The notes under the pieces are model-generated. The model worked only from the letters and a program-made list of their open reading frames with translations, was not told the origin of the DNA and did no database searches. From a virus (Duplodnaviria > Caudoviricetes): a stretch of DNA of 54,010 nucleotides. Location: positions 1 to 54,010 of the IMG/VR virus record IMGVR_UViG_3300036944_000329; one strand, written 5' to 3'. A program made the translations under genes and the position numbers. Shown here in pieces: positions 1-53,034 of the stretch (its first letter is position 1; each line of letters opens with the position of its first letter).

Positions 1-1
1 C

Positions 2-1588
2 ACTGCCGGTAACTTTGACTCCACCACTGCTACAGGTTTCTTTGGTGAAATTCCTGCTACAGACCTTGTTGATGATTATGATTATCGTGGCACATGGTCA
101 GCATCTATCGCATACACTGCTGGTCAGAGTGTTGTTTACAATGATGTTAAGTATGTTGCCCTGACATCTACCACAGGAAATCAGCCAGATATTTCACCAA
201 CACAATGGGGCGTGGATACACGGGAGAATCTCCCAACAGGACGTTGGTTGTTTGAACACATGGGCTTTGGTCAAGGCGTGTTACAGTTTGCTGGGAATAC
301 AGCATCAGATGCGGGTTGGCTTAAATTCTATAGTCACGGTAAGGTGTTGTATGTAGCTAAGAAACCTTTTGCTCACTCTATTTCTTGGGATGCGATTGCC
401 TGTCGAGATGGTGTGTTCGGTGATAGGACAGTTCGCATAGGCACTAAGTTATATAAAGTGAGACTGTTGACTGGTGCTGCATCTGACCCGATTGATCTAA
501 CCAACATTGTGGCTACAGATAGCTGTACTCAGAATTATGGCGGTGGGTCTGAATACAATGAACTCATCTACCGTATTCATCAGACTGTTGTGACATGTGG
601 TTCTGATACATACGATGGTGGCCCACAGGTGGGTGCGAATTGGGCTAGTTATACAGATACAGATTTACAAGTTGGTGGAACTCTGACTGGACGTGCTAAG
701 TGGACACAAGAGACCACATCAAACAACACCTCCTTTCGTGTCTTTCGTGGCTATGATCGTCTTTCTAACTTGGGTTCGCACACGTCCTCGAATGGGTTTA
801 CCGACTACGGTTGGCTGCCTGTCTTAGAACTGATCTCTGATGGCGATGAGCCATATAATAGCGCCGTGTTGGGCGTAGGCCCAACCCAGCTTACATACGA
901 TTTCCATACCGATACGGGTTATTTCGGCACTGTATCCTCAGCCGAATTCATATCAGGAAGTGCTTTAGCCTCAAGTATTGGTCTAACATCTGGTACAGCA
1001 ATCAATGACACAACAGATTGGTTAAAGTTTTATTGGCACGGACAGATCCACTATGTCCCGATGAAACCTCTTCGTCACAGTGTTAGTTGGGATCATATAT
1101 ATGACAGAGGTGCTGTGTATGGTGTATCTTCGATGGGATTGTTTGGCAAAGTAACCGCAGCTCCGAGTGTTGTCCAGAATCGTGAAGTGACAATCGGGAC
1201 AGATACATTCCGAGTGAAGCTCTTGAAAGGTGCTGAGAACGGAGATGTTGACGGAAGTACAAGTTTCCCTGCTGCCGACGAATCTGGTAGAAACTCCGAA
1301 TACAACGACCTCATTTATCGTGTTCATCAGGATGTTCCATCAAGCGCATCTGGACTAACTTATGATGGCGGCGGTCAGATCGGGGATAATTGGGCAAGCT
1401 ATACTGATACAGATCTTGTTATAGCTGCTGGTGATGGTCGTTATAAATGGGCTATTGAAAGACGTTCTGATTCCACCTCCGGTCGTGTCTATCGGGGCTA
1501 TGTTCGTCTTTCTGGCTTGCATTCGCTCACGTCCTCGGGTGTGTCTACCGACTTCGGTTGGCTGCCTTCGCTTGTCTTAAAGCCGTAA
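2..1588 (+). CDS. Virion/tail-associated protein, putative DGR target with two tandem domains each ending in a variable repeat; 5'-partial
   Basis: The frame is open from position 2 (TAGNFDSTTATGFFGEIP...), so the GTG at 212 is not the true start. Two homologous domains (G[YF]FG...WLKFY..G...P..HS.SWD.I...G.[FY]G...VRLL.GA...SEYN.LIYR.HQ...R..RGY.RLS...GWLP.L.L). A CBM5/12-like segment WSASIAYTAGQSVVYNDVKYVAL...PTQW is inserted in domain 1. Confidence 0.85.
   Translation, partial: TAGNFDSTTATGFFGEIPATDLVDDYDYRGTWSASIAYTAGQSVVYNDVKYVALTSTTGNQPDISPTQWGVDTRENLPTGRWLFEHMGFGQGVLQFAGNTASDAGWLKFYSHGKVLYVAKKPFAHSISWDAIACRDGVFGDRTVRIGTKLYKVRLLTGAASDPIDLTNIVATDSCTQNYGGGSEYNELIYRIHQTVVTCGSDTYDGGPQVGANWASYTDTDLQVGGTLTGRAKWTQETTSNNTSFRVFRGYDRLSNLGSHTSSNGFTDYGWLPVLELISDGDEPYNSAVLGVGPTQLTYDFHTDTGYFGTVSSAEFISGSALASSIGLTSGTAINDTTDWLKFYWHGQIHYVPMKPLRHSVSWDHIYDRGAVYGVSSMGLFGKVTAAPSVVQNREVTIGTDTFRVKLLKGAENGDVDGSTSFPAADESGRNSEYNDLIYRVHQDVPSSASGLTYDGGGQIGDNWASYTDTDLVIAAGDGRYKWAIERRSDSTSGRVYRGYVRLSGLHSLTSSGVSTDFGWLPSLVLKP
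728..820 (+). repeat. DGR variable repeat VR1 (internal)
   Basis: 93 nt, aligning ungapped with 1475-1567. There are 15 mismatches, 14 at codon positions 1-2, mostly in NNC/NNT codons. Confidence 0.85.
868..885 (+). other. GC-rich hairpin downstream of VR1 (candidate DGR target-recognition hairpin)
   Basis: GTTGGGC-GTAG-GCCCAAC, a perfect 7-bp stem with a 4-nt loop inside the coding sequence, about 48 nt after VR1. Confidence 0.55.
1475..1567 (+). repeat. DGR variable repeat VR2 (C-terminal)
   Basis: Second copy of 728-820, located at the 3' end of the gene as is typical for DGR VRs. Confidence 0.85.
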
Positions 1589-1617
1589 GGCTGTCTCTTA
1601 ACACTAACATCTAATAT

Positions 1618-1657
1618 GTGCGCGTTTAATGGCGGGGCTTGTCCCCGTCTAGCGCAC
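1618..1657 (+). other. Stem-loop/cruciform downstream of VR2
   Basis: Outer stem GTGCGC(1618-23)/GCGCAC(1652-57) and inner CGGGG-CTTGT-CCCCG(1633-47). A small AGCC-GTAA-GGCT hairpin also lies at 1581-1592. Confidence 0.6.
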
Positions 1658-1669
1658 TAAGGAATAATT

Positions 1670-1990
1670 ATGGTTGCTGATGGATTACTAGTGTTCTCTA
1701 AAGCAGAATCATTGTTCTACAGAATCTATCCATCTTTGATTAACTATCCTCGTGGTGAGAAATACTCTACGGTGGCTGCCATCAAAGATAACTTCATAGG
1801 ATTTCTCACAAGAATAAACCAAGCCAACTCTGTTAAGTCAAAACGTATAATGTATCTACAAGAGGATATTACCAGATGGTCTACTTCCAAAACAACGAAG
1901 CACAATTCTACACAACAAAAGCTATATTCACTGATACAGGCCATCCTGTTGAGCAATATACAAATGATCGTCAATACTATGAAAGCCTAG
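1670..1990 (+). pseudogene. avd: Truncated DGR accessory variability determinant (Avd, four-helix bundle)
   Basis: The first ~65 aa (L.VF.K...L...IYP.L.NYP+.EKY.....IK......L..I..AN.VKSKR..YLQE) resemble the Avd family. At about 1864 the sequence runs into the RBS (AAGAGGA) and ATG 1876 of the next gene, and the rest of the ORF is out-of-frame read-through. Confidence 0.75.
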
Positions 1991-2547
1991 TAGGACAATG
2001 GGGCCATCTGTCCAACCTATCCTTCGAGGATGTCGTCCCAACACAATCTCAGCAAGCTCGTCTAGTAGAACTAAATAACCTAGAAGTTCCTAACAAAGAT
2101 CTCTGGCAAGGCACCTGTGCTACATTCGTTGAGCATGGTATTATCCTCCCAGATGATTCTAGCCCACTATCTTCACTAGAACCTTCCTACAGAGAATCTA
2201 CACTCAATTTCTTCCGTGAAGAACGTAGGCAGATTCTCAAGCAAGAACGTGATGAACGTATCTCTCTTCCAATCAATAATGTTCAAGTGGGACGTATTGA
2301 GGACAGAGAGAACGTGACAGGTACTATCTCGAATTGGGATATTCTTGGTCTGACAACATCAATCAAATGGGTGATGTCTGATAACACGCTACAAGATCTC
2401 TCTAAAGCTGATCTGGAGGCTGTTGTAATTGGATATACACAACGTAAGGCTCAGACATTCTCTGCTTACGAACAGGCTGTGATTGCTTTACAGCAAGCAT
2501 CTACGATTGAGGAGATTATGGGTGTAATGTTACCGGAGGCTGTATGA
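1876..2547 (+). CDS. Tail-fibre assembly-like protein (C-terminal DUF4376-like domain)
   Basis: Motifs LK.ERD..I, W.M.DN....LS..DL and L..A.T.EEI. RBS AAGAGGA. Tail context. Confidence 0.65.
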   Translation: MVYFQNNEAQFYTTKAIFTDTGHPVEQYTNDRQYYESLVGQWGHLSNLSFEDVVPTQSQQARLVELNNLEVPNKDLWQGTCATFVEHGIILPDDSSPLSSLEPSYRESTLNFFREERRQILKQERDERISLPINNVQVGRIEDRENVTGTISNWDILGLTTSIKWVMSDNTLQDLSKADLEAVVIGYTQRKAQTFSAYEQAVIALQQASTIEEIMGVMLPEAV

Positions 2548-3053
2548 GGAAGGTAGTGGCTACATTGTTCTTAGGATCTGTCCTAACCGGGTGCTCCTTA
2601 GACACAACTAATCGAACACTCTCTGTTATAACTTCTGCCACAAACATTGCTTACACATATGAGAATGGACAGGCTGTTAAATTCATCGACAATGCCCCTC
2701 TGACAGACCTTGAGATAACAATGGTGTTGGAGGCTTTTGATCAAATAGACCGTTCGAAGTCTGTCCTAAAACACTACCGAGACAATCCAGACAAACTCGT
2801 TCTGAACATACAAGATGTATCATTTCAATATGCTAAGATCAAATCAGCCTACCTAAGCATTCGAGAGATAGTCTTGTCTCACAAGGATGCTTACAACGCT
2901 CCAGAATGGGCTGTATTCAAAGAGTTTGATCAGAGTGCATCCGTATTAGACAAAGAGTTTAGACAGCTTGTGGAGGCTGTAGAGGCCAATACAGCACTTA
3001 CTACAGCTATACGTCTGGCTGATACCGCTATTAAGATAGGAGCTATGTTGTGA
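2544..3053 (+). CDS. Putative lipoprotein
   Basis: Lipobox-like LTGC after a hydrophobic N-terminus; overlapping start/stop with neighbours. Confidence 0.6.
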   Translation: MRKVVATLFLGSVLTGCSLDTTNRTLSVITSATNIAYTYENGQAVKFIDNAPLTDLEITMVLEAFDQIDRSKSVLKHYRDNPDKLVLNIQDVSFQYAKIKSAYLSIREIVLSHKDAYNAPEWAVFKEFDQSASVLDKEFRQLVEAVEANTALTTAIRLADTAIKIGAML

Positions 3054-3562
3054 TCCCGTTCGACAGATCAAAGGATCAGATACTTCAGCACGGAATATCT
3101 GTCAGGTACTATCATGGACAATCCACCGAGGACAAGATTGTACTTGTTCCTTGGGTGTTGTGGTCAGCACGATTTCAGATAAAGATAATCATACCTCGCT
3201 TCTTTATCTACGATGGAGCGTCAGTCCCGAAGTCTTTACGAAGTATCGTGTCCAAAGCTGGTCCTCTTGAGATAGCATCTTTACCGCATGATTTCGGCTA
3301 TACACTCCCCGCATATCATCCAGACGAAACGGTTCTCACCCGAGATGAATGGGACTTAATCCTCAAGGACTTCTGTGAGCTTGAAGGTATGTCTTGGAGG
3401 CGTAGGCAATATGTGTACCTAGCCGTGAGGTCTGCTGGATATTTTGCCTATAACAACAAAGACAAGGCTTTCTTCTGTCCAGATGAACACAAGGATTGGT
3501 ATATCCAAGAATATTCATATCTAAACATACCAAAAGAGAATGGTGATTATAAAATAATATAG
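3050..3562 (+). CDS. DUF1353-family protein
   Basis: Pattern F.YDGASVP...A..PHDF.Y...R.E.D.IL. Confidence 0.7.
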   Translation: MIPFDRSKDQILQHGISVRYYHGQSTEDKIVLVPWVLWSARFQIKIIIPRFFIYDGASVPKSLRSIVSKAGPLEIASLPHDFGYTLPAYHPDETVLTRDEWDLILKDFCELEGMSWRRRQYVYLAVRSAGYFAYNNKDKAFFCPDEHKDWYIQEYSYLNIPKENGDYKII

Positions 3563-3571
3563 GAGAAAGCC

Positions 3572-4510
3572 ATGTCTAATTCTAACATGGTGGAAGTGTA
3601 TGTGGCAGGACACGGGGGAGATGTCCTACCTGTCCCAATCACTTCCGAGAATATCACTGTAACGAAACAAATTGAATACAGGGAGAATATACGCTCAGAC
3701 AGGTGTGTCAATAAATGGTCTGAAGTATCCTACACATCCTCTGCCCAAATAGATTTCCACCTAACCCTCAACCACGATTGGTTGTTTGAACACGCTCTTG
3801 GTGGGGATTGGCAAAATGGCGCATATTCTTCCTCTCTACAGTATTCAAATGCAATCAAACCGCTTGTTATTGGAAAGCATTTATCTGATCTCGATCACTG
3901 GGAGGTGTGTACGGATGCTTACCTAGACACACTATCCCTAGACGTGTCATACGGGAATATTGTCAACGGTTCTGCTACGTTTGTTTCTAATGGACATTCG
4001 TTTGAGAATGAGTTTAGCTCTACGCCAACAATAGAACATCAACCAGTGATTACAAGCAAAGATGTTGGTGTGATTGAAGTGGAGGGATATGACACTGGTA
4101 TGTTTATCGAGAGTCTAGATATGGTGATTAGTAATTCATACCAGCAACGCACTCCTATTGGTAATAAATATGTGTCTGGGTGGACGCCAACTAAATTCAC
4201 AGTGACTGGGAATATGAGCATCTACCTGACACAAGAATCTCTGAGCTTGTATAGAGAAAATTTCGAGACCAAGACATTCTCACTACGTTGGTGGTTACAT
4301 GCTAATGACACTATCTACGAATTCTTCCTCCCTGAATGTGTGTTAGATATCACAACACCTGTCGCTGAAGGGTTGGATACAGATATGTTTGTCAATGTCT
4401 CGTATTTTGCAATCTACTCTGAGACATTTGGTGGCGTGATGCAGATAAACAAATGGCGGGATATGTCGCTAGTGGATATAGCAGCCAACTCTCTATGGCC
4501 AAAAGCATGA
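3572..4510 (+). CDS. Phage tail-tube-like protein
   Basis: Beta-rich, with ENIRSDR, L.ISN....R..IG and F.VTG.+S+Y motifs resembling siphovirus tail tube proteins. RBS AGGAG. Confidence 0.55.
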   Translation: MSNSNMVEVYVAGHGGDVLPVPITSENITVTKQIEYRENIRSDRCVNKWSEVSYTSSAQIDFHLTLNHDWLFEHALGGDWQNGAYSSSLQYSNAIKPLVIGKHLSDLDHWEVCTDAYLDTLSLDVSYGNIVNGSATFVSNGHSFENEFSSTPTIEHQPVITSKDVGVIEVEGYDTGMFIESLDMVISNSYQQRTPIGNKYVSGWTPTKFTVTGNMSIYLTQESLSLYRENFETKTFSLRWWLHANDTIYEFFLPECVLDITTPVAEGLDTDMFVNVSYFAIYSETFGGVMQINKWRDMSLVDIAANSLWPKA

Positions 4511-4520
4511 GGAATTATAG

Positions 4521-5969
4521 ATGACAACATATAACACAGGGAATCCTGTTGGGAGTGCTGACCCAAAAGATTTCTACGACAATGCTGAGAACTTAGACTT
4601 AGCTATAAACGGAACAGGGGATATGTGGTTAGACCGCCTTGGCGTGTCACGCAAAAGCATAGCTGGATATAACAAGGATATGCAAGATCGAGTAAATGAG
4701 GCTGCTGCTAGTGCTAGCAAGGCTTCTATATCTGAACAGAATGCTTTAGCCAGTGAGCAAGCAGCAGCCTTGTCTGAATTAAATGCTTCAGCTAGTGCAT
4801 CTGCTGCATTAACATCTGAACAGAATGCTTTAGCCAGTGAGCAAGCAGCAGCTCTGTCTGAATCAAATGCAACCACATCGGAGGCGAATGCCCTAGCTAG
4901 TGAACAATCCGCAGCCTCCTTGTACGATCAATTTGATGATCGCTATCTAGGTAGTAGGGCAGACAACCCCACTGTAGATAATGATGGTAATACTCTCCTT
5001 GAGGGCGCTCTTTATTGGAATTCTACAGCTAAAGTGATGCGTGTTTGGGATGGTGTCATCTGGAAAGATATTGTCATCCCCGATTATGGCACTGCTGCAC
5101 TGGTTAATACAGGCACAGCCTCCGGCGAGCTAATCGGCACAGATGAGGCGAACGACTACTACGGCCTGCAATACAAGCCGTCCGTTGCACCCACAATGTC
5201 ATCCGATTTCTGTGCTAACGAACACAAACTCTACGAGCAATACGGCCTTGAGCCTAAAACCATCTTGCAGCAATGGGATGTAGTGCGTAATTCAGAGGCT
5301 ACCTATTTCGATGCAAACGGTGTGCTGCAAACGGCTGGGATCAATGAGCCTCGGATTGATTATGATCCGGCTACGGGAGAATGTCGGGGGTTGTTGGTTG
5401 AGGGGCAGCGTACAAATATCCAGCTTTACTCAAGAATGCAACAAGGATGGGAATTTACGGGGTACGATGAAGTATATAATGCAGCGATAGCGCCCAACGG
5501 TGAGATGGAGGCGCTAGAGGTTTATTATAACGGCGTAACGGCTATTAATATACGTTCGTATACCGCACCTTCTTCTACCCAGATGGTTTTTTCTATTTTC
5601 TTTAAAAACAAAAACTATTCAAAGGATTTCGTTCGGTTCTTAGTTAGAAACAACACAAGCGGAACAAATTTTATACAAGGCAACTTCGACTTAACTGATA
5701 ATAGTTTTCCAGATGGATCTCCTTGGCGCTCTGAATCTGTAGGTGACGGTTGGTATAGAATTTGGTTCACGACACCAATCGACATGGTTACACAGGGCGA
5801 CATTTTGTATTTCTATCTGGGTGAAACAGGGAGTGATATTTTCTTGGGAGCTGGCTCTTATTATTTTTGGGGCTGTCAGGCAGAGAATGGTACAGAGCCT
5901 TCTAGTTTAATTTATACCGCAGCATCTGCCGTAACCCGCGTAGCCGACATCATCACCCCAACAGTATAA
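4521..5969 (+). CDS. Tail fibre/spike protein
   Basis: N-terminal anchor MTTYNTGNPVGSADPKDFYDNAENLD, Ala/Ser-rich stalk repeats, FDDRYLG...DNDG..L..GALYWN module, and a C-terminal PRIDY...GLLVE..RTN...TR.AD domain. Confidence 0.8.
   Translation: MTTYNTGNPVGSADPKDFYDNAENLDLAINGTGDMWLDRLGVSRKSIAGYNKDMQDRVNEAAASASKASISEQNALASEQAAALSELNASASASAALTSEQNALASEQAAALSESNATTSEANALASEQSAASLYDQFDDRYLGSRADNPTVDNDGNTLLEGALYWNSTAKVMRVWDGVIWKDIVIPDYGTAALVNTGTASGELIGTDEANDYYGLQYKPSVAPTMSSDFCANEHKLYEQYGLEPKTILQQWDVVRNSEATYFDANGVLQTAGINEPRIDYDPATGECRGLLVEGQRTNIQLYSRMQQGWEFTGYDEVYNAAIAPNGEMEALEVYYNGVTAINIRSYTAPSSTQMVFSIFFKNKNYSKDFVRFLVRNNTSGTNFIQGNFDLTDNSFPDGSPWRSESVGDGWYRIWFTTPIDMVTQGDILYFYLGETGSDIFLGAGSYYFWGCQAENGTEPSSLIYTAASAVTRVADIITPTV
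4730..4852 (+). repeat. Intragenic direct repeat (84-bp period) encoding SEQNALASEQAAALSE
   Basis: ATCTGAACAGAATGCTTTAGCCAGTGAGCAAGCAGCAGC is identical at 4730-4768 and 4814-4852. Confidence 0.9.
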
Positions 5970-10314: not shown

Positions 10315-10326
10315 TCGACACCCTCC

Positions 10327-10938
10327 TTATAAAAATCTTGTACATAATGCCTGAGCAATACGAGCATCTGTAACATATTCTGAATCAGCTAATTGACAAG
10401 CTAATTCGTGTTTTCGTTTTTTCCAAACTAAATGAGCTTGGTTAGGGTCGTTGAATAGACCTAGATATTCTCGTTTACCAGTGAAGGGGTTGCGGCATCG
10501 AGCCTGAAATTTACCTTTATAGGAGCTAACGCCTAGCGGGAATTCTCCACGAGCATTGCCGCTATCATTCAAAAAAGTATTCACAATAGATGTAACGAAT
10601 ACGCAAGTATCTGGCCCGTATTCTTTATTACCTACAACTAACAAGTCTTTATCTAGTTGTTTGTTCTCCCAAGATTGGGACTCCATCCAGCACTTGAAGT
10701 TTGAGAATGTTAACCATTCTTCACAAACAGAGCAGCCAATATAAGTAGGTTGCTTTTCATGGTACTTTTCAGAGTAACACCGTTTTAGCATATGGCACCA
10801 TCTAGCATAATACGGGCATACCCATACCATTTTCCGTTTACCATCCACATTTTCATACAAAGTCACATTGTAATTGGCATCATTTAAACCCACACCCTGT
10901 ACTAACTTATTCGTTGATCTTATTTTAATACCTATCAT
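10327..10938 (-). CDS. Free-standing HNH-like homing endonuclease (paralogue 1 of 3)
   Basis: W..ML.RCY...Y.GCSVC.EW..FSNF...LDKD...GNK.Y.P.TC.FV...VN, with an AP2-like C-terminus (.YLG.F....AH..W). Confidence 0.75.
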   Translation of the reverse strand: MIGIKIRSTNKLVQGVGLNDANYNVTLYENVDGKRKMVWVCPYYARWCHMLKRCYSEKYHEKQPTYIGCSVCEEWLTFSNFKCWMESQSWENKQLDKDLLVVGNKEYGPDTCVFVTSIVNTFLNDSGNARGEFPLGVSSYKGKFQARCRNPFTGKREYLGLFNDPNQAHLVWKKRKHELACQLADSEYVTDARIAQALCTRFL

Positions 10939-14436: not shown

Positions 14437-15390
14437 TCACAATGTACAGCTTTCACAAGCAGCTTCTTCTACTTCTCGAACAGTATCTGAATCGTCCTTA
14501 CTAGGCATTCTGAAGTTGTGATAATACCAAGTCTTCATCCCAAGTTTAGCGGCTAGGAAGATAGACTTCATCATCTCTGCATCAGAAAATGGGCCTTTGT
14601 TATAGTCATGGTAGAAGTCAGCGCTAATCCCCTGACTGCACCATTTCTGCACAATCGCATACACTTTAACCATATCTTCTGAAGCGACATCCCAAGCATA
14701 TTGGTACTTAACAGTGTCCATATCAGGTGCCCGGAAGTAAACGCTACCCTTGCGGGAGTTCTTATATATTTCTAGGTCACGCACTGGATAGAGACTATTC
14801 GTGCTACCTGTTACGAGAGAACTACTCTCACACGGCATGTAGCTCTCTAATACACTGAACCGAACACCGTGTTCCAGAATGTCCTTCCTGAGACTTTCCC
14901 AATCGTAAACATTGTCTTGTGAATGATACATATCTACAGTTTTGGTGTATGTGTCAGAAGGAATCCATCCCTCTGCGTATTTGGTACGATCCATGTACTC
15001 ACACTTACCCTTCTCCTTTGCCAGACGAACAGACGCTTTATGTAAGAAGTAGGAGTGTCGTTCAGCAAGTCTGTGAAGTGCGTTACGTCCTTCCTCTGTA
15101 TCGTAGCGGTAGCCATTCTTAGCCATCCAGTGAGCTACGTTAGTCATACCTACACCAATTGACCGATACCCTTTCGCTGTGGCCTCCATACTCTCGAATG
15201 GGTACTTCGTATCATCAATTGTGTTGTCAATAATCTTGCAAAGTGTGTAAGCAAGATCTTCATACTCCGCATCAGTGTAATCGTCCACTACGATACTGCC
15301 CAAAAAACACAGTGCGATTGTCCCGTCTGCATTCTCCTTGTAAAGCTCTCTTGGACTTGAGAACGGTTTAGTCGGTAGCAACACCTCTTG
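14437..15390 (-). CDS. nrdA: Ribonucleotide reductase alpha subunit, exon 2
   Basis: Begins QEVLLPT; contains RSIGVG, MP.ESSS, QGISAD, KTWYY and a C-terminal CESCTL. Confidence 0.93.
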   Translation of the reverse strand, partial: QEVLLPTKPFSSPRELYKENADGTIALCFLGSIVVDDYTDAEYEDLAYTLCKIIDNTIDDTKYPFESMEATAKGYRSIGVGMTNVAHWMAKNGYRYDTEEGRNALHRLAERHSYFLHKASVRLAKEKGKCEYMDRTKYAEGWIPSDTYTKTVDMYHSQDNVYDWESLRKDILEHGVRFSVLESYMPCESSSLVTGSTNSLYPVRDLEIYKNSRKGSVYFRAPDMDTVKYQYAWDVASEDMVKVYAIVQKWCSQGISADFYHDYNKGPFSDAEMMKSIFLAAKLGMKTWYYHNFRMPSKDDSDTVREVEEAACESCTL

Positions 15391-15618
15391 CGAGGAACCT
15401 AATGCTTTCGCACTAGCTCGGACTATATCACCATCCCATAAGGATGCCGGACGCTAATCTTGTCTTACGATCTACGCTTAGATCACCAAGTAGTCTCTAC
15501 ACCTTCCTGACAAGATCGTGTCAGGCTTGGCTCGGTATTGCCATCACCATTACGTGTTAAGGTTTCACCGAATTCATCCGGTTATTCGAGATACATTGCT
15601 GTATCAAGCTGCCAATTG
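15391..15618 (-). ncRNA. Group I self-splicing intron (228 nt, no internal endonuclease)
   Basis: 5' exon ends in U (TGT, Cys) and the intron ends in G. P1 CUGUC-AAUU-GGCAG has a U.G pair at the splice site. Core elements GAAUUCGGUGAAACC, GGCAAUACCGAGCCAAGC, GAAGGUGUAGAGACU and GAUAUAGUCC are present. Splicing restores SNLC-QEV. Confidence 0.93.
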
Positions 15619-16881
15619 ACAGAGGTTGCTCAACCTAATTTCCTCTTTGAACGGAGTGTGCTTGTTCACATTATTAATGAATGTGATGTAGTTACGCCCA
15701 GTGTCCCTACGGGCTTCTACGAGCTGCTTCAGGATACCACGAGCATCTACCACTTTCTTCTTAACGTCACTAGCCAGCACACGTTCATATTCTTTCTCAA
15801 AAGCACCTTCATCTTCGCTGTAGAACAGCTCCCACAACTTAGGTGCGTAATAGGGACTGACGCACATCCAAGGTTCTTTCTTAGCTGCTTTCTTCAAGAA
15901 CAGGTTATTGACCGCAATCGAATAGTCTAACGTATCAATCCGGTAGTTCTCTGGTGTACGTTGTTGCTTCATTGTAAGCAGTGCATCAACTTCAGGGTCA
16001 AGAACCGTATAGGTCACTGTACTAGAGCCACCACGAGTCACCTGAGAGTTTGCTGCAACAGCACTGGCAATGTGCTTATAGTATGAATGCTTACCAGAAT
16101 GAGTCACCATACCCCCCTTAACAGGGTCTTTAGGTGCTCGTGTAGTCAATTCAATACCAATACCACTACGCTGTGCTGTCAGCTTGTATGCTACATCAAT
16201 CGCTGCCTGAATACTATCTACAGTGTCCCCTCCGCTCATAACCGCACAACTGGGGGAGGATTCTAGCAGAGTACGGCTTCCGTTTAGCGTTGGTGTGGGC
16301 AAGTTTAACTTCAGGTTACTCAGCTTTTGGTACGCACTAATAACTTCTTGCAAACGATTGTCTTCGTTACGCATTTGGTTCATAGCGACACCCATAAATA
16401 ACATCTGAGGAGACTCTACGACACCTTCTGACATATTCACTAGGTACTTATCGTATAGTTGTTTCAATGTCGCGTATGTGTAAGTGAAATCCTTAGTGTG
16501 GTCAATTACGTTGTCAAGTTCAACCAGTTCGTAATCTGTATAGCCCATATCAACCCACCAACCATTCTCAACAGCTTCTTCATAGAAGTCTTTAAGGGAT
16601 GGGATTGAAAAGCACTTATATGCCTCCTTATAAATGTGTCCAACAAGCAGTCTAGCTGCCATTCGTGTATGCCCGTCTGTCCGTTTGGACAAGCAAGAGT
16701 TAATGAGTGCATTGTGCAGATCTACTGTTGTACAACGCTCAGACAGACCACGAACAGCATTGAATACAACAGATGACCAATCAACACCGCATTCCTCAGA
16801 TGCCCAGCTAGACCATTTGTTCAGGTTGTCTACGTCAAACTCTGCAACAGAACCATCTCGTTTAATAATCTCTTTAATCAT
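15619..16881 (-). CDS. nrdA: Ribonucleotide reductase alpha subunit, exon 1
   Basis: ATP-cone-like start (IIKRDG...FD), ESPQ, LPTP, SC, GIG and RGG; ends SNLC. Confidence 0.93.
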
Positions 16882-19137: not shown

Positions 19138-19349
19138 TCCATATTCTCCTTCTCAAATTTAACAGGCCAATAATTCTCACACACTACATCGTAATCTTGA
19201 TCAAATGAATTCCATACAAGATCATACATATACATCGCATAACTTTGCCAATATGGGTGTGGTGTAGCTTGGTTCCGATGACACATCCTTGCCAGAGGAC
19301 ATTCGTCATTCTTACACATTGTAATGTCTGCCACAAGGGGTCTCCTCAA
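19134..19349 (-). CDS. Small Cys-rich hypothetical protein
   Basis: DITMC....CP....C.R motif. Confidence 0.6.
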   Translation of the reverse strand: MRRPLVADITMCKNDECPLARMCHRNQATPHPYWQSYAMYMYDLVWNSFDQDYDVVCENYWPVKFEKENME

Positions 19350-20314
19350 ACATTCATCAATGTGTACTGCATCTGCTCTTTCGTCTTCACATTCTTGCGG
19401 CTACGCTTAATCGACCCACAATTCCCGCAACGATATGTCTCGAACTTAGACAGGTTAGTGTAAGCATGTTTACCAACCATCTTGTCCATATCATCACTTC
19501 CACAAGAATTACATCGTACACGATCATCATTGTGATGTAAAGCTACGTTTGGATGATTCTTCATAAATGGTCTCACCTTGTAATACAGGCTAACCAGCGT
19601 GGGTATGTCGCCACGATTGTATTCAAGCAGCTGGTTCATAGCCTCAGAATCACCATTCATGCAATCAAGCCACAATCCTATACCAGACGTACTCAACTTA
19701 CGCTCTAGCTCAAAATACCGTGTAGCACTGTCTAGGCTATTCGATGGCAGACTGAAATGCTTGCGTAATGCTTTCAGCGTACACACCACCTTGTAAGGAG
19801 ATGGTGGCGACATTCCGTGATAAGCAAATCGTGTATTCATCCAGCCATCATCAAAACTAGCATTATGAGCAATAATGATATCAGCTTCGTCTAGTAGTTC
19901 CCACAGCTGTTCGATCAAGAGAATGTCGTTTGCATAATCTCCGTCACGCCATGTTGGTAGCTGATGTAGACCAAGAGAATCGTATTCAGCATTATGTGGG
20001 GTTGATGTATTCAACTTAGCCCAAGCTGCTGTCAGGACATACGGTTCCTGAATCACTGCTTGTGGGCTGATGTTAGCCTTGAATCGAGGGAATGTAGCTG
20101 CAATTGTAGCACTCACCTCTAGGTCAATAAACAGGATATTGGCCCCGTCTTTAGCCTCAACCAACCCGGTATCTTCTCGCATTCGAGCAAGAATATCATT
20201 CACACTACTCTTCTTGCTAGGACTTCCCCACAATGCGTGTGAGATTTGTCGGGAGGACATCCCTTGCTTGGACATCTTTAGAATCTGTTCCACCGTGTTA
20301 TCATCGTGCTTCAT
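19346..20314 (-). CDS. RNase H-like/DnaQ-like 3'-5' exonuclease with N-terminal HTH and C-terminal Zn ribbon
   Basis: LFIDLE, AHNA.FD, YN.GD and CxxC...CxxC. Confidence 0.75.
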   Translation of the reverse strand: MKHDDNTVEQILKMSKQGMSSRQISHALWGSPSKKSSVNDILARMREDTGLVEAKDGANILFIDLEVSATIAATFPRFKANISPQAVIQEPYVLTAAWAKLNTSTPHNAEYDSLGLHQLPTWRDGDYANDILLIEQLWELLDEADIIIAHNASFDDGWMNTRFAYHGMSPPSPYKVVCTLKALRKHFSLPSNSLDSATRYFELERKLSTSGIGLWLDCMNGDSEAMNQLLEYNRGDIPTLVSLYYKVRPFMKNHPNVALHHNDDRVRCNSCGSDDMDKMVGKHAYTNLSKFETYRCGNCGSIKRSRKNVKTKEQMQYTLMNV

Positions 20315-23580: not shown

Positions 23581-23590
23581 ATACGCCTCC

Positions 23591-24193
23591 TTATAAGTAA
23601 CGTGTACGTAATGCCTGAGCAACACGTTCATCAGTTACATATGCTGATTCGACTAACTGGCAAGCTAATTCGTGCTTGCGTTTCTTCCAAGCTAGATGTG
23701 CTTGGTCTGGGCAGTCGAATAGTCCGAGGTATTCTCGTTTGCCCGTGAACGGGTTTCTGCACTGAGCCTCAAACTTCTTTGCCACATTATGAAAACGAAC
23801 TCCGAGCGGATAGGCTCCACGACTGTTGCATCTATCTAGAGTAAAGGTGTTCACAACGGATGTAACGAATACGCAAGTTTCTGGCCCGTATTCTTTATTA
23901 CCACTGATTAATAAATCTTTATCTAGTTGTTTGTTCTCCCAATCCTGTTGCTCCATCCACAGCTTAAAATTACTAAACGTCAACCAGTCTTCACAAACTG
24001 AACAACCTGAGTATGTTGGATAATGTTCATGATACTCTTTAGAATAACAACGTTTTAACATATGACACCATCTAGCATAATATGGACATCGCCAAACGAT
24101 TGTCTGTTTCCCATCTATCCGCTCATACAGAGACACTTTATAACCGGCGTCATTAATACCGACACCATACACCTTACTACATTCCCTTCCCAT
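23591..24193 (-). CDS. HNH-like homing endonuclease (paralogue 2 of 3)
   Basis: Same motifs as 10327-10938. Confidence 0.75.
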   Translation of the reverse strand: MGRECSKVYGVGINDAGYKVSLYERIDGKQTIVWRCPYYARWCHMLKRCYSKEYHEHYPTYSGCSVCEDWLTFSNFKLWMEQQDWENKQLDKDLLISGNKEYGPETCVFVTSVVNTFTLDRCNSRGAYPLGVRFHNVAKKFEAQCRNPFTGKREYLGLFDCPDQAHLAWKKRKHELACQLVESAYVTDERVAQALRTRYL

Positions 24194-25903: not shown

Positions 25904-25928
25904 TAGTTTTTTGTTCAAATGCAGCTTA

Positions 25929-26522
25929 TTATAGATACCTTGTACGTAATGCTTGCGCAACACGTTCATCGGTTACGTGTTCTGAATCAGCTAGTTGGCA
26001 AGCTAATTCGTGCTTACGTCTTTTCCAAGCAAGGTGAGCTTGGCTAGGGCATTCGTACACACCAAGGTGCTCTTGTTTCCCAGTAAATGGGTTGCAGCAC
26101 CGAGTCCTAAACTTCTTCGCCAGTTTATCAAAATGAACTCCAATCGGATATTCTCCTCGACTATTGGCACTGTCAGTTAAAAAAGTGTTTACTATTTGTG
26201 GAACAAATACACAGTTGTCAGGGTTGTATTCTTTATTGCCAACCTTCAATAAGTCTTTATCTAGGTGTTTGTTCTCCCAATCATGTTGTTCCATCCATGC
26301 TCGGAAGTTCGAGAACGTATGCCACTCTTCACAAACAGAACAGCCTATATAAGTAGGTTGCTTCTCGTGGTACTTGCCAGAATAACAGCGTACCAACATG
26401 CTCTGCCACTTATTGTAAAACGGGCACACCCACACAACCTTCCGTTTTCCATCAACATTTTCATTCAAAGTCACATCGTAATTTGCATCATTAATACCTA
26501 CGCCTGCTACTAATTTAGCCAT
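25929..26522 (-). CDS. HNH-like homing endonuclease (paralogue 3 of 3)
   Basis: Same motifs as 10327-10938; immediately downstream of the DNA polymerase gene. Confidence 0.75.
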   Translation of the reverse strand: MAKLVAGVGINDANYDVTLNENVDGKRKVVWVCPFYNKWQSMLVRCYSGKYHEKQPTYIGCSVCEEWHTFSNFRAWMEQHDWENKHLDKDLLKVGNKEYNPDNCVFVPQIVNTFLTDSANSRGEYPIGVHFDKLAKKFRTRCCNPFTGKQEHLGVYECPSQAHLAWKRRKHELACQLADSEHVTDERVAQALRTRYL

Positions 26523-26535: not shown

Positions 26536-28647
26536 TTAGTGAATCGAATACCAGTCTGGGCCAGCTTGAGCCGTGCCCGTTACCAACACATCCAAGCCAA
26601 TTCGCTTTGACGCCTCGCCATACATATCTGTCATAAGTTTCATACCGATTTCCTGTTCCTCTAAAGGGAACTCCGCAGTCAATTCATCGTGAATTGACAG
26701 TATTTGATGGCCTTTTAATCCCATCTGACCCATCTTGTGATTAAGCCAGCAAACAGCCTCATTTTGCAGTACCGCCTCTGAAGCCATCAGCAAATAGTTG
26801 AGAAGCTTGTGCTCTGACATGCAGTACACCCAAGTATTCCCAGCAACTTGTATGAAACCACCTCGTCCGTATGGGTGTTCTTTGAACACCTTGCGTAACC
26901 GCTCTTGTAAGTCACCCATTGCCGGAAGCTCCCTTGTGAATCGCTCCTTGATGGCCTTGCCTTGTGCTGCTGTTTTTAGCTTCAGGGTTGTCGCAAGCTT
27001 TTCGTCACCGCCTCCGAAGAGGTAGCAGTATATCCCATTTTTGCTGTACTTCCGTATGTCCGTCAACTGTTTAATGAGTGAAGCATCTTGTGTCTCTCTT
27101 GCCTCCTGTACCATATCACTACTCATTACACCAAATGCTTGTGCGTTCAGTGTGTGAGGGTCTGTACCTACGTAATTGTGGTTCTCATCAAACTCTTGCC
27201 CAGACAGTACAGCGTGTGTATATGCCGGATCGCCCATGAAGTTAGCAAGCAGTCGTAGCTGTGCTGAATCCATGTCAACAGACACAAGGATCTTACCCTC
27301 ATCTGCTACCCAAGATTTCCTCATTTCCGCTCCATAGAGTGCTGACGGACTCGGCACGTTTACGATACCCCTCTGGGCCGCTCTACCCGTGCTGGTCGAC
27401 CACGCCATACAGCCCGATGCAATGCGCCCATCTGCACGTAACTGGTTAATCCACCCCTTTTCATCACTCTTTTCATTAGCGAATGTCCTGCGCCGATGCA
27501 CATAAGTGTTATACTTGGCAATCTTTTCACCCAAGTCTCCACTGATACTGTCGAAGCTATCCTCAGTGAGCTTAGGGGATTTGGGGATCATCTTACCCCT
27601 CTCATCACGGACAAACTTGCCCTCAGAGTCCTTCTCATAGTTCCATTGCGTAGGCTCCCAGCCGATACTAAGTAGATATTCCTTGATAACAGCATGTTGA
27701 GACATCTTGGCCTCTAAGTAATCAATCTTTGTGTACGGGCCTGCAACTAAACGATCTGACTCATCAGGCTCTTGGCTGATGCCAAAATGTGTTGCAGTGT
27801 GCTTGTCGTAATTGCCATTCTTCAGGAACACCTTAGTTGTTGGCATGTAAGCATCCTTGATGACTTTGCCGCTCTCATCAAACTTATTAGGTGGTGTCTT
27901 ACGGAAGAACGCAGTCCACTTGTTGCTTACATCTGACCATGTACATTTAGGTGCCTTGACTTTAAGCTGCTTAGGCAGCAATGGCTCAATATCCTTCCTA
28001 AGATCCTCAATGAACCCATCTAGCTCTTCAACACACCTGAGCATGTGATCTTTGTCACCCTTTGTACCATACAGCTCTTGCTTAGTGTACCAGTAAGATG
28101 TTGCTTGTGTACGCCTGATGGCCTCTACAAAGTTCAGTCCAGTCTTCTCAGCCTCATTGTTGAGGTATTTGTATGTCCGTAAGTTGATCTCAATATCAAC
28201 CAACACACGGTTGAGCTTCTCAGCGTCCCAGTACGTCCAGTCGTCAATCGGAGGTTTTGGGTACTTGAACAGTTGCCCGTAATACTCCAAGCCATGATTT
28301 CCACTAAGCCCTTTCAAGCGAGGACGATCATAGATCTGACATTTAGACTGAATGAAAGTATCCCAGCACTTGCTGAACGGAACGGTTGCTCTTGTCCACA
28401 AATGCGGGAAAAACTTTTCTAACACATGGTAGTCGTAGCCGAGAAAGTTGTGTGCAACGATCTTGTCATAGCTCATCAAGAACTTGACACCATCCTCAAG
28501 AGTGCCATCTACTTTATGATTGCCGCAATCTTGTTCTGTAAAAACATATGATTGCTTTGTCTCAGCATCAACTGCTGCAATCACCCAAATCGTAGTAATC
28601 TTGTCGAGAAGCGCATCCGCCTCTATATCAAAAACAACAGTCCTCAT
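26536..28647 (-). CDS. polA: Family A DNA polymerase with 3'-5' exonuclease
   Basis: ExoI FDIEAD, ExoII HN..GYD, TGR, motif A D...AQLR, motif B R...KNGIY..LFG, and motif C IHDE. Confidence 0.93.
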   Translation of the reverse strand: MRTVVFDIEADALLDKITTIWVIAAVDAETKQSYVFTEQDCGNHKVDGTLEDGVKFLMSYDKIVAHNFLGYDYHVLEKFFPHLWTRATVPFSKCWDTFIQSKCQIYDRPRLKGLSGNHGLEYYGQLFKYPKPPIDDWTYWDAEKLNRVLVDIEINLRTYKYLNNEAEKTGLNFVEAIRRTQATSYWYTKQELYGTKGDKDHMLRCVEELDGFIEDLRKDIEPLLPKQLKVKAPKCTWSDVSNKWTAFFRKTPPNKFDESGKVIKDAYMPTTKVFLKNGNYDKHTATHFGISQEPDESDRLVAGPYTKIDYLEAKMSQHAVIKEYLLSIGWEPTQWNYEKDSEGKFVRDERGKMIPKSPKLTEDSFDSISGDLGEKIAKYNTYVHRRRTFANEKSDEKGWINQLRADGRIASGCMAWSTSTGRAAQRGIVNVPSPSALYGAEMRKSWVADEGKILVSVDMDSAQLRLLANFMGDPAYTHAVLSGQEFDENHNYVGTDPHTLNAQAFGVMSSDMVQEARETQDASLIKQLTDIRKYSKNGIYCYLFGGGDEKLATTLKLKTAAQGKAIKERFTRELPAMGDLQERLRKVFKEHPYGRGGFIQVAGNTWVYCMSEHKLLNYLLMASEAVLQNEAVCWLNHKMGQMGLKGHQILSIHDELTAEFPLEEQEIGMKLMTDMYGEASKRIGLDVLVTGTAQAGPDWYSIH

Positions 28648-29246
28648 ACAACCTCCTTGTAATTTTTATTACGAAGAATCTTCCACATTGTCTGATATTT
28701 TATCCCGAACTCATCTGCGGTCAGTTGTATGTTGCCACAATTCTCATAAAACTCCCTCGCGGCTACCACCTGTTCGTTTGTCATTGTTGCTCTTGGATGA
28801 CGTTCGCACTTGTTTGACGCCAATCCTGTATCGTAACTGTGTCTCACATTCTCTTGTGGCGTGACCCATTCCAAATTCGACGGGGTGTTGTTCTTTTTAT
28901 CGCCATCGATATGGTTCACTTGCGTGTTAGTGTCCTTGTCTGGGTTGTCGACCCACAGAGTTGCCACCAACCTATGGACAAAAATAGATTTCTTTATCTT
29001 CTTGCCTTTGACTTTTCTACTGACATGGAGTACGGAATACCCGTCAACTGATGTCTGTAGTTTACACATCTTCTGTTTAGTCGTGTAGCTGAAATAGCCG
29101 TTTATGTTTCTGCTTGTCTTTTCGTATGGAACTGATCTAACCCTTCCGAAGTTAGAGACCTCGTATCTATCAGAAAGACAAACATCACCAGCGATATCAG
29201 GTGCCGGTGCCCAAACTTCCTCTATGTCAAAAACCACTGTACTCAT
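28644..29246 (-). CDS. NUMOD4-HNH homing endonuclease
   Basis: YEVSN.GRVRS, VHRLVA and VNHIDGDK.NN...NLEWVT..EN..H. Confidence 0.9.
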   Translation of the reverse strand: MSTVVFDIEEVWAPAPDIAGDVCLSDRYEVSNFGRVRSVPYEKTSRNINGYFSYTTKQKMCKLQTSVDGYSVLHVSRKVKGKKIKKSIFVHRLVATLWVDNPDKDTNTQVNHIDGDKKNNTPSNLEWVTPQENVRHSYDTGLASNKCERHPRATMTNEQVVAAREFYENCGNIQLTADEFGIKYQTMWKILRNKNYKEVV

Positions 29247-33866: not shown

Positions 33867-33924
33867 AATCTATCTGATCACGATTGATGAGTCAATGGTT
33901 GTTAGTCACAATTGTACTCAGACA

Positions 33925-34333
33925 CCCAGACTAGATGTCTAGACTAGATATCTAGTTTAGATATCCTATCTAAATATCTTATCTAGATATATAGTATTTA
34001 TAAGTATAATAGTAACTAAATAATACTAGCTAATATATCTTGTTAAGAAGTCTAGTCTAGATATCCAGTATAGATGATCTAGTCTAGATATCTTGACCAG
34101 ATCGCCTAAGCGAAGCGTACATCTTCTGTGATAGTGTTGTCAATACCCTTTTCAAAGATTCTTAACAAAATGTCTTGTTAAGATGTCGTAGTAAGCATCA
34201 TATGTATATGTAAATACTTGTTATTACTAGTGATTCCTTGTTAGAGATGGTGTCATCCCTTGTGATCAGATGTGTAGGCTTCGCCTGAATGTGATCAAAA
34301 TGTCTTGACACAACATCCGGACAAGACTAATCT
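33925..34333. repeat. AT/CTAG-rich divergent-promoter element A (inverted homologue of 52598-52990); candidate replication origin
   Basis: The reverse complement contains AAGAATCTTTGAAAAGGGTATTGACAA and ATATCTAGACTAGACTTCTTAACAAGATAT, both also found at 52744-52860. Promoters: TTGACA-N18-TACGCT (minus, 34114-34143) and TTGACA-N17-TAATCT (plus, 34305-34333). Confidence 0.75.
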
Positions 34334-42333: not shown

Positions 42334-42399
42334 GGCTGTAATAATGTATTTGAGATACATCTTTATCAGTGTTTCATGTGGAACATTTGCCACCATTGG

Positions 42400-42582
42400 T
42401 GCCTGAATCAATCCTTGCCTGAATCAATCCTTGCCTGTATCATCCTTGCCTGTATCATCCTTGCCTGTATCATCCTTGCCTGTATCATCCTTGCCTGTAT
42501 CATCCTTGCCTGTATCAATCTTGCCTGTATCAATCTTGCCTGTATCATCCTTGCCTATAGCATCCTTGCCTGAATCAATCCT
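42400..42582. repeat. Tandem repeat, 12 units of 15/16 bp (TGCCTGTATCATCCT)
   Basis: Two 16-bp TGCCTGAATCAATCCT units, nine 15-bp units and a final 16-bp unit. Confidence 0.95.
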
Positions 42583-52990: not shown

Positions 52991-53034
52991 GCCTAGAACT
53001 CTAGTCTAAACATCCTAACAAGATCTCTAGCAAA

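What the first reader, a model, noticed from the sequence alone, without database searches (positions are those of the whole stretch)
2..1990. Orphaned diversity-generating retroelement in an apparently virulent phage: target, hairpins and half of avd remain, TR and RT are missing
Seen: a target-like gene with two VR-like copies, GC-rich hairpins after each, and an Avd-like ORF that breaks off after about 65 codons. At that point (...TATCTACAAGAGGATATTACCAG-ATG, ~1864-1876) it abuts the RBS of the DUF4376-like gene. No RT ORF and no third, AAY-rich copy of the repeat were found by eye on either strand. Established: DGRs are typically target-hairpin-avd-TR-RT and are best known from temperate phages. 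Inference: a single deletion removed 3' avd, TR and RT, freezing a selected receptor-binding variant. Alternatively, the locus is diversified in trans by an RT/TR elsewhere in this genome, in the host or in a co-infecting sibling. A DGR footprint in a genome with a lytic-type replication module is unusual.
Basis: partly seen in the sequence, partly recalled or inferred. Interest (0 to 1): 0.9.

Follow-up and report, generated by a model that had tools for sequence, protein, structure and literature searches.

The report
Phage hypermutation cassette lost by deletion
This phage still carries a tail-fibre gene with two hypervariable receptor-binding patches, but a 1.4-kb deletion has removed the retroelement machinery that mutates them; close relatives keep that machinery at the same site, so this is a clear but not unprecedented case of such a system decaying.

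Summary
The deletion reading is strongly supported.

- **What the window holds.** Window 2-1990 carries the 3' part of a tail-fibre-like gene with two VRs (727-820 and 1474-1567), each followed by a GC-rich inverted repeat. Next come the first 63 codons of avd, then the last 24 codons of a reverse transcriptase (RT) overlapping the DUF4376 gene.
- **What relatives hold.** Three close relatives (L001, L002, L014) carry target-avd-TR-RT-DUF4376 at the same place. The window lacks 1,387-1,388 bp.
- **The junction.** It lies in a 7-nt repeat, CAAGAGG, which is also the ribosome-binding site of the DUF4376 gene.
- **The VRs.** They differ from the relatives' TR at 11 of 23 and 16 of 23 adenines, against 3 of 71 other bases each.
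- **Same-sample sibling.** Contigs of the probable source run hold an avd-TR form at about one eighth of the deleted form's depth.
- **Second haplotype.** A 69-aa protein on three other contigs carries the same junction peptide.
- **Frozen VRs.** Both VRs are identical in a strain that differs elsewhere; every other relative has its own VRs.
- **Not shown.** Selection, and diversification in trans.

Broken DGRs in phages, and DGRs in lytic phages, are already in print. Interest is moderate.

The parts
2..1588 (+). 3' part (528 codons) of the DGR target gene, a tail-fibre-like protein. The contig end cuts off its 5' end. Full-length relatives are 844-906 aa.
   Evidence: Model of the 528 residues: pLDDT 88, pTM 0.90. 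Residues 25-74 form a CBM5/12-like module (cyanophage A-1(L) tail fibre 8kec_a: Z 9.0, rmsd 1.0, 48 aligned; Pfam CBM_5_12 E 2.9e-4 below cut-off). Two C-type-lectin/FGE-like domains follow.
727..820 (+). VR1, an internal variable repeat at the end of the first lectin-like domain.
   Evidence: Against the TR of L001: 11 of 23 TR adenines changed versus 3 of 71 other bases; Fisher p 4.6e-6. One of the 3 is the GGT allele that the TR of L014 carries.
868..885 (+). GC-rich inverted repeat 47 nt after VR1, inside the coding sequence (7-bp stem, loop GTAG).
   Evidence: Conserved in L002; one stem base differs in L001. A role in homing is not tested.
1474..1567 (+). VR2, the C-terminal variable repeat of the second lectin-like domain.
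   Evidence: 16 of 23 TR adenines changed versus 3 of 71 other bases; Fisher p 4e-10.
1618..1657 (+). Nested GC-rich inverted repeat after the target's stop codon (outer 6-bp stem, inner 7-bp stem 1631-1649).
   Evidence: z -3.13. Interval 1568-1669 is 102 of 102 identical to L002.
1670..1858 (+). avd remnant: the first 63 codons of the accessory variability determinant.
   Evidence: bAvd profile positions 3-59 of 107 only. 186 of 189 nt identical to L002's avd, which runs on to 123 aa. Full-length 123-aa Avd proteins 100% identical over this part exist in public data (P0056-P0058).
1859..1865 (+). CAAGAGG, the deletion junction. It is a 7-nt repeat present once in avd and once at the RT 3' end of intact relatives, and is also the Shine-Dalgarno region of the DUF4376 gene.
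   Evidence: L014 has CAAGAGG at both sites; L001 and L002 have CAAGAAG in avd and CAAGAGG at the RT end.
1859..1934 (+). RT remnant: the last 24 codons plus stop of the reverse-transcriptase gene, overlapping the start of the DUF4376 gene.
   Evidence: tblastn: RT of L001 residues 319-342 match window 1860-1931 at 92%; alignment.
1670..1990 (+). Chimeric 106-codon ORF: 63 Avd codons fused to 43 codons in a third frame, which is neither the RT frame nor the DUF4376 frame.
   Evidence: Frames worked out from the alignment.
1876..2547 (+). DUF4376 gene, the conserved right-hand neighbour of the cassette. It is intact.
   Evidence: PF14301 E 4e-10; 98% and 95% aa identity to L001 and L002.

Best explanation
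The locus is what remains of a standard phage diversity-generating retroelement (order: target with two VRs, hairpin, avd, TR, RT). One illegitimate recombination or replication-slippage event between two copies of the 7-nt sequence CAAGAGG removed about 1,388 bp. One copy lay at codon 64 of avd and the other 17 nt before the start codon of the downstream gene. The lost stretch held the 3' half of avd, the TR, the spacer and all but 24 codons of the RT.

The retained repeat copy is the ribosome-binding site of the DUF4376 gene, so downstream expression signals survive and the phage should stay viable. Without RT, TR and a whole Avd, the phage cannot rewrite its two VRs by itself. The tail fibre is therefore fixed at the variant it carried when the cassette was lost.

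Shown:
- the anatomy of the locus;
- the deletion and its end points;
- the adenine-specific history of both VRs;
- the presence of an avd-TR form in the same run;
- identical VRs across two strains.

Inferred:
- the slippage mechanism;
- the loss of function;
- that the fixed variant was advantageous, rather than the deletion having drifted or hitch-hiked to dominance.
For: **Relatives with the intact cassette.**
- L001 and L002 (target 91% aa identical) and L014 carry avd, TR and RT between the same flanking genes. Avd is 123 aa, with bAvd E 1.9e-14 over profile 3-105 of 107. RT matches RVT_1 at E 2e-22.
- The three-way alignment shows one gap of 1,387/1,388 bp with CAAGA(A/G)G at both ends.
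- L014 has the window's exact 22 nt left of the junction and a perfect CAAGAGG.

**VR history.**
- Window VRs against the TR: 27 of 46 adenine positions changed, against 6 of 142 others.
- Both window VRs carry GGT where the TRs of L001 and L002 have GGC. L014's TR has GGT. The window's lineage therefore homed from that TR allele before the loss.

**Same-run contigs (run X1, the possible source).**
- One contig covers 1-1865 and stops there.
- A contig at depth 28.2 runs 1836-2996 with no mismatch. It holds the deleted junction.
- A contig at depth 3.9 starts with the same 30 nt and runs on for about 200 nt that are not in the window. A TR then follows, mapping on VR1 with 12 differences, and after it the post-TR spacer as seen in L001.

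**Second haplotype.** P0055 (69 aa; 3 JGI/IMG contigs, longest 36,357) ends in the junction peptide ...YLQEDITR. It has V for M at residue 61 and a stop where the window has W.

**Frozen VRs.**
- P0001 (844 aa) has both VR peptides identical to the window but differs at 3 residues elsewhere.
- There are 9 VR2 haplotypes among the 11 close sequences compared.
- Run X2 shows no difference at VR2 in the rows shown, and a contig identical over 635-837.
Against: **Fragmentary record.** The record is a fragment, 43% complete by CheckV. A second RT/TR elsewhere in the genome is not excluded.

**Limits of the run evidence.**
- Run X1 may be the sample the window was assembled from, so it is not independent.
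- The junction contig has only 23-30 letters left of the junction, under the tool's 31-letter rule for bridging.
- Depths are one figure per contig.
- For X2, whether the deleted junction is present was not among the rows shown.

**Database scans.** The 22-nt junction string found nothing in viral contigs or metagenome contigs.

**Recombination or recurrence.**
- The window is L002-like left of the junction (avd 5' half 98.4% against 76.7% to L001). It is L001-like right of it (DUF4376 99.0% against 95.1%). Recombination between genomes may have made or moved the deletion.
- The same junction occurs with M61 and with V61, and both alleles also occur with whole avd. The event may be recurrent rather than single.

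**No test of function.** Nothing here tests fitness, expression or infectivity.
Confidence: 0.92

Rival explanations
1. The cassette is gone, but the locus is still diversified in trans. When a deleted phage and an intact sibling infect one cell, the sibling's Avd-RT-TR RNA rewrites the VRs of the deleted genome. Deleted genomes would then act as free-riders on the population's DGR.
For: The acceptor side is untouched. The VR 3' ends match those of the relatives, and 1568-1669 with the inverted repeat is 102 of 102 identical to L002. An avd-TR form with the same 30 nt before the branch point is in the same run at depth 3.9 against 28.2. In Bordetella phage BPP-1, homing into a phage target was assayed with avd-TR-brt supplied from a donor plasmid, and IMH plus hairpin sufficed to target a foreign gene (PMC3240598; abstract and passages read).
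Against: Both VRs are identical in the window, in run X2 (rows shown) and in strain P0001, which differs elsewhere. Contigs cannot show rare variants, so low-level change is untested. Co-infection rates are unknown.
Confidence: 0.15
2. An RT and TR that serve these VRs lie in the unassembled 57% of the genome, so the DGR is merely rearranged and not lost.
For: The record is 43% complete. Remote targets are known for some DGRs (PMC5758913, passage read).
Against: The broken avd and the 24-codon RT stub show that this cassette was destroyed in place. The records of L001, L002 and L003 each hold exactly one RVT_1 match, at this locus, although they too are fragments (22-46% complete).
Confidence: 0.04
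3. The junction is an assembly artefact, and the real genome carries the intact cassette.
For: VRs and repeats are known to break or confuse assemblies (PMC8008677, passage read). An intact form is present in the same run.
Against: The shared repeat is only 7 nt. A second, independent assembly of k-mer contigs holds the junction in one contig with no mismatch over 1836-2996, at about seven times the depth of the intact branch. A different haplotype with the same junction peptide lies on 3 other contigs.
Confidence: 0.02

Closest known systems
Bordetella phage BPP-1 DGR (mtd-avd-TR-brt)
   Same: The intact relatives have the same order: target, inverted repeat, avd, TR, RT. The substitutions are adenine-specific. 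The VR sits at the C-terminal end of a C-type-lectin-fold receptor-binding domain (Mtd 1yu0: Z 5.8, rmsd 3.8, 118 aligned). The target is a tail-fibre-type protein.
   Different: One TR serves two VRs in tandem domains of one protein, one of them internal. The inverted repeats lie 47-50 nt after the VRs. Their loops (GTAG, and CTTGT in the inner stem) do not fit the GRNA consensus or the 4-34 bp spacing reported for phage DGRs (PMC3240598, passages read). In the window itself the avd 3' half, TR and RT are deleted.
Incomplete DGR cassettes of genus-I AlphacrAssvirinae (Morozova et al. 2020, PMC7290462)
   Same: These are a phage lineage in which whole, broken and absent DGR cassettes occur at one locus beside a tail gene. 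Of 91 genomes, 15 were complete, 66 incomplete and 10 had none (abstract, results passage and Discussion read).
   Different: That cassette has no avd and a different target. In the parts I read, no exact deletion junction and no co-occurring progenitor in one sample were described. Here the end points are known to the base. I could not see their Table S1 because supplements are closed.
DGRs of lytic or probably lytic phages (slurry virome, PMC7981956; Bacuni phages, PMC8143477)
   Same: DGRs that target tail proteins in phages without lysogeny genes. Bacuni phages also have two VRs.
   Different: Those are whole cassettes, and the Bacuni VRs lie in two separate genes (passages read).
DGR variable proteins TvpA (2y3c) and TaqVP (5vf4)
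   Same: The same FGE-like / C-type-lectin fold carries the VR. TvpA: Z 6.9, rmsd 5.2, 149 aligned. TaqVP: Z 5.4, rmsd 4.0, 139 aligned. TvpA is the top Foldseek PDB hit for the whole model (E 7e-3).
   Different: Sequence identity is 10-12% and no Pfam FGE-sulfatase match was found. The closest structural relatives are virion structural proteins of phiKZ-like jumbo phages (BFVD: E 1e-19 to 1e-12, TM about 0.7).

Membership tests
Diversity-generating retroelement (functional cassette) | A DGR-type reverse transcriptase gene | tested here: not met
   No RVT_1 match in the 54-kb record. Only the last 24 codons remain, at 1860-1931. Relatives L001, L002, L003 and L014 do have it. The record is 43% complete, so this holds for the locus and not for the whole genome.
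Diversity-generating retroelement (functional cassette) | A template repeat paired with the variable repeat(s) | tested here: not met
   Repeat family D11 has only the two VRs. blastn with L001's TR and spacer finds only the VRs.
Diversity-generating retroelement (functional cassette) | A whole accessory protein Avd (four-helix bundle) | tested here: not met
   Only profile positions 3-59 of 107 are matched, at 23.3 bits against a 40-bit cut-off. Relatives' Avd is 123 aa and matches 3-105 of 107.
DGR target locus (remnant of a DGR) | VR differs from the cognate TR almost only at TR adenines | tested here: met
   Against relatives' TR: VR1 11 of 23 A and 3 of 71 non-A; VR2 16 of 23 A and 3 of 71 non-A. 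Fisher p 4.6e-6 and 4e-10. The TR used comes from relatives, not from this genome.
DGR target locus (remnant of a DGR) | VR lies in a C-type-lectin (or Ig) fold ligand-binding domain | tested here: met
   Domain-2 model: pLDDT 81.9. In a search of 48,161 PDB representatives, the listed top 50 are lectin / FGE-like folds as far as I can judge from their titles. They include TvpA Z 6.9, Mtd Z 5.8 and TaqVP Z 5.4; the best is PvdO at Z 7.5. All Z are under 8, so the case rests on the uniformity of the list and not on any single score.
DGR target locus (remnant of a DGR) | IMH and a GC-rich hairpin/cruciform downstream of the VR | tested here: inconclusive
   Inverted repeats exist after both VRs and are conserved in relatives. 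Loop sequences and the 47-50 nt spacing depart from the published GRNA loop and 4-34 bp pattern (PMC3240598). The VR1 stretch is weak against shuffles (z -1.83).
Virulent (non-temperate) phage | No integrase or recombinase; own replication machinery | tested here: inconclusive
   No PF00589 or PF00239 match. A T7-like primase/helicase, DNA polymerase, ribonucleotide reductase and thymidylate synthase are present. Only 43% of the genome is held.

The most novel reading that the evidence does not exclude
The CAAGAGG pair may be a recurrent deletion hot spot that works as an off-switch. Because the repeat doubles as the next gene's ribosome-binding site, every such deletion yields a viable phage. 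Populations would then hold a shifting mix of diversifying and frozen genomes. Frozen ones could be re-diversified in trans, or repaired by recombination with intact siblings. The wider tail-fibre family would lose its DGR again and again by different routes: this deletion, replacement of the RT by an HNH homing-endonuclease gene in L005 and L006, and clean absence in the complete genome behind L004.
Probability: 0.15. Interest if true: 0.65.

Novelty: new member of a known kind. Interest (0 to 1): 0.4.

Why it matters
What a DGR costs a phage, and when it pays, is largely unknown. Here intact and deleted forms differ by one defined event. They appear together in one run, with the deleted form about seven times deeper by contig depth. 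The frozen VR pair can be tracked across samples.

The question can therefore be tested with data that already exist: raw reads and time series from these habitats. If the host is found, simple competition and trans-complementation experiments would also test it. The locus further shows that one TR can serve two tandem lectin domains in a single fibre.

The case is a clean example, not a new principle. Broken DGR cassettes in phages, and DGRs on lytic phages, are already described.

Tried and rejected
**Searches that found nothing useful.**
- blastn of window 1-4600 against 50,697 phage records: no match.
- The exact 22-nt junction string in viral contigs and in metagenome contigs: 0 hits each.
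- phmmer of the target against PDB sequences: only chance-level hits.
- Pfam finds no lectin or FGE family in the target.
- Foldseek on the whole two-domain model gave no hit at E 0.001 or better. The fold call therefore rests on the single-domain model.

**Readings rejected.**
- The two VRs are not merely an internal domain duplication. They are more alike than their domains, and they differ from each other and from the TR at TR adenines.
- The locus did not lack a DGR from the start. The avd and RT stubs rule that out.

**Not resolved.**
- For L004 and L007, which have no cassette, primary absence cannot be fully excluded. The fold is common in jumbo-phage virion proteins without known DGRs. 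L004's VR region still shows adenine-biased differences from the clade's TR (13 of 23 against 7 of 52, p 4e-4). L007 was not tested.

**Tools and literature.**
- Full-text searches for DGR decay or orphan VRs turned up only the crAss-like study.
- A word search of PMC8144416 for temperate, lytic and virulent found none of these words.
- Supplements are closed. Table S1 of PMC5758913 (multi-VR targets) and Table S1 of PMC7290462 (types of incomplete cassettes) may bear on the novelty rating.
Full report
**What the window is**

The window is a complete public virus record of 54,010 bases. It is linear, and CheckV estimates it at 43% complete. Its left end cuts into the gene under study.

**Anatomy**

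- ORF 2..1588 is open at its 5' end and encodes 528 residues.
- A model built from 44 aligned relatives has pLDDT 88 and pTM 0.90. It shows a small CBM5/12-like module at residues 25-74, whose best match is a cyanophage tail fibre (8kec_a: Z 9.0, rmsd 1.0, 48 aligned). Two similar larger domains follow.
- The second domain was modelled alone (pLDDT 81.9) and aligned to 48,161 PDB representatives. The list it gives consists, as far as titles show, of C-type-lectin and formylglycine-enzyme-like folds.
- That list includes three DGR variable proteins: TvpA at Z 6.9, Mtd at Z 5.8 and TaqVP at Z 5.4. The best hit is PvdO at Z 7.5. No Z reaches 8, so the fold call rests on the uniformity of the list.
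- Among viral models, the nearest are virion structural proteins of phiKZ-like jumbo phages (E down to 1.4e-19, TM about 0.7).
- Each lectin-like domain ends in one copy of a 94-nt repeat, at 727-820 and 1474-1567. The copies are 84% identical and are the only two in the record.

**Downstream of the target**

- A nested GC-rich inverted repeat lies at 1618-1657.
- An ORF starts at 1670. Its residues 8-65 match the first half of the bAvd profile (positions 3-59 of 107; E 9.3e-5, below the curated cut-off).
- The DUF4376 gene starts at 1876.
- The record has no RVT_1 match. It has no third copy of the repeat on either strand.

**Relatives**

A scan of viral contigs with the target protein gave 8 loci.

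- The two closest, L001 and L002 (91% aa identity), have about 1.68 kb between the target and the DUF4376 gene, where the window has 288 bp.
- In L001 this space holds three parts. The first is a 123-aa Avd (bAvd E 1.9e-14, profile 3-105 of 107). The second is a 94-nt TR rich in AAY codons. The third is a 342-aa RT (RVT_1 E 2.1e-22) whose last 59 nt overlap the DUF4376 gene.
- A metagenome contig, L014, has the same cassette.

**The deletion**

- The three-way alignment shows the window colinear with L001 and L002 on both sides of one gap of 1,387/1,388 bp.
- The gap is bounded by CAAGA(A/G)G in avd and CAAGAGG at the RT 3' end. The window keeps one copy, at 1859-1865.
- L014 carries the window's exact 22 nt left of the junction and a perfect CAAGAGG in avd. 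The repeat was therefore 7 of 7 in the likely parental type.
- The retained copy is followed by ATATTACCAG-ATG in all genomes. I read it as the ribosome-binding site of the DUF4376 gene; that reading is an inference from sequence.
- After the junction, the avd frame runs 43 codons in a frame that is neither RT's nor DUF4376's. tblastn recovers the last 24 RT codons at 1860-1931.

**VR history**

- Against the TR of L001, window VR1 differs at 11 of 23 TR adenines and 3 of 71 other bases. VR2 differs at 16 of 23 and 3 of 71. Fisher p is 4.6e-6 and 4e-10.
- The six VRs of L001, L002 and L014 behave alike.
- One of the non-adenine differences in each window VR is GGT for GGC. L014's TR has GGT. 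Both window VRs therefore received that allele by homing before the cassette was lost.

**Is it real, and how common?**

All 20 holder runs are kept only as k-mer contigs. I laid four of them.

- **Run X1.** This run may be the source and so is not independent.
  - A 2,372-nt contig covers 1-1865 and ends exactly there.
  - A contig at depth 28.2 covers 1836-2996 with no mismatch. It holds the deleted junction, with 23-30 letters to its left, which is below the tool's 31-letter rule.
  - A 349-nt contig at depth 3.9 begins with the same 30 nt and runs on for about 200 nt absent from the window. It then holds a TR (12 differences from VR1) and the post-TR spacer.
  - An avd-TR form with the window's own alleles is therefore present at about 12% of the summed contig depth. 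Depths are one figure per contig.
- **Run X2.**
  - It has a contig ending at the same base.
  - It has loose ends that match the post-TR spacer and the RT 3' end.
  - It shows the window's VR2 with no difference in the rows shown.
  - Its junction status was not shown.
- **Runs X3 (wastewater) and X6 (subsurface).** These hold intact relatives with other VRs.

Evidence from the protein collection:

- P0055 (69 aa; 3 JGI/IMG contigs) ends in the junction peptide YLQEDITR. It has V61, and a stop where the window reads W. It is thus a second haplotype with the same junction.
- Five clusters of whole 123-aa Avd are 97-100% identical to the window's remnant.
- P0001 has both VR peptides of the window but three differences elsewhere. 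There are 9 VR2 haplotypes among the 11 close sequences compared.

**Wider family** (target about 39% identical)

- L003 has the whole cassette.
- L005 and L006 keep avd and most of the TR. An HNH endonuclease gene (PF01844, E 2.2e-6) replaces the TR's 3' end, the spacer and the RT up to its last 14 or so codons. Their 114-kb record, 87% complete, has no RVT_1.
- L004 has only a 42-codon ORF between the target and the DUF4376 gene. It lies in a complete 57-kb genome without RVT_1. Its VR region still differs from the clade's TR mostly at adenines (13 of 23 against 7 of 52).
- L007 also lacks the cassette; its VR region was not tested.
- L008 ends at the contig edge.

**Life style**

The window encodes these replication and nucleotide-metabolism genes:

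- a T7-like primase/helicase, whose best phage matches are at 39-44% aa identity;
- a DNA polymerase with a separate exonuclease subunit;
- ribonucleotide reductase and thymidylate synthase.

No integrase or resolvase is found in the part held.

**Known work**

- DGRs on lytic phages are reported (PMC7981956, passages read).
- A crAss-like genus has 15 complete, 66 incomplete and 10 absent cassettes among 91 genomes (PMC7290462; passages and Discussion read).
- One target gene with three VRs is on record (PMC5758913, passage read).
- Published phage DGR hairpins have 7-10 bp GC stems, GRNA loops and 4-34 bp spacing (PMC3240598, passages read). The repeats here fit the stems but not the loops or the spacing.

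**Verdict**

The deletion reading is supported at about 0.92. Freezing is consistent with the data, but selection is unproven. Diversification in trans is possible but unsupported. The locus is a decayed member of a known kind of system, of moderate interest because the event is defined to the base and its likely parent shares the sample.

Noticed in passing
L005:2290-3133 (the same in L006): In a more distant relative, an HNH endonuclease gene (247 aa) replaces the 3' end of the TR, the spacer and nearly all of the RT. It reads into the last 14 or so RT codons. The avd gene is intact. This is a second, different route to DGR loss at the same locus.
   Followed up: partly
L004:10843-10971, in a complete 56,975-b genome with terminal repeats: The homologous tail-fibre gene is followed by a 42-codon ORF and then the DUF4376 gene. 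The whole genome has no avd, TR or RT, yet the VR region keeps an adenine-biased difference pattern against the clade's TR.
   Followed up: partly
window 1-2700 against L001 and L002: The window is mosaic. It is nearest L002 from about 820 to the junction (98-100%) and nearest L001 from 1935 onward (99-100%). The avd 5' half exists as two alleles only 77% alike.
   Followed up: partly
window 665-700: Just before VR1 the window differs sharply from L001 and L002. Their sequence there resembles the stretch before VR2, which suggests gene conversion between the two domains in one of the lineages.
   Followed up: no
L014:668-761 against L014 TR at 2005-2098: In this intact relative, VR2 carries the TR's GGT allele near the 3' end but VR1 keeps GGC. 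The two VRs are therefore not overwritten to the same 3' boundary, or not equally often.
   Followed up: no
window 14437-16881 (- strand): The ribonucleotide reductase large subunit is in two ORFs, separated by 219 nt. One covers profile positions 61-489 and the other 500-795 of 975. The cause could be an intron, a frameshift or a true split; it was not examined.
   Followed up: no
window 10322-10938, 23586-24193, 25924-26522 (- strand): Three paralogous ORFs of about 200 codons (73-80% nt identity) have no Pfam match. Two of them lie between the DNA polymerase exonuclease gene (19346-20314) and the polymerase gene (26536-28647). An HNH_3/NUMOD4 endonuclease gene lies at 28644-29246.
   Followed up: partly
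window 33921-34126, 43201-43452, 52817-53074: Intergenic arrays of a 13-nt unit of the type TCTAGACTAGATA occur, some in tandem at 13-nt spacing. They may be promoter or regulator sites.
   Followed up: no
window 42397-42606: About 14 tandem copies of a 15-nt unit (ATCCTTGCCTGTATC) lie inside a minus-strand ORF (42424-42774).
   Followed up: no
model of window 854-1588: The VR-bearing domain is structurally close to a multi-copy family of virion structural proteins of phiKZ-like jumbo phages (PhiPA3, Noxifer, EL, PhiEaH1, RSL2). This suggests a shared receptor-binding module.
   Followed up: no
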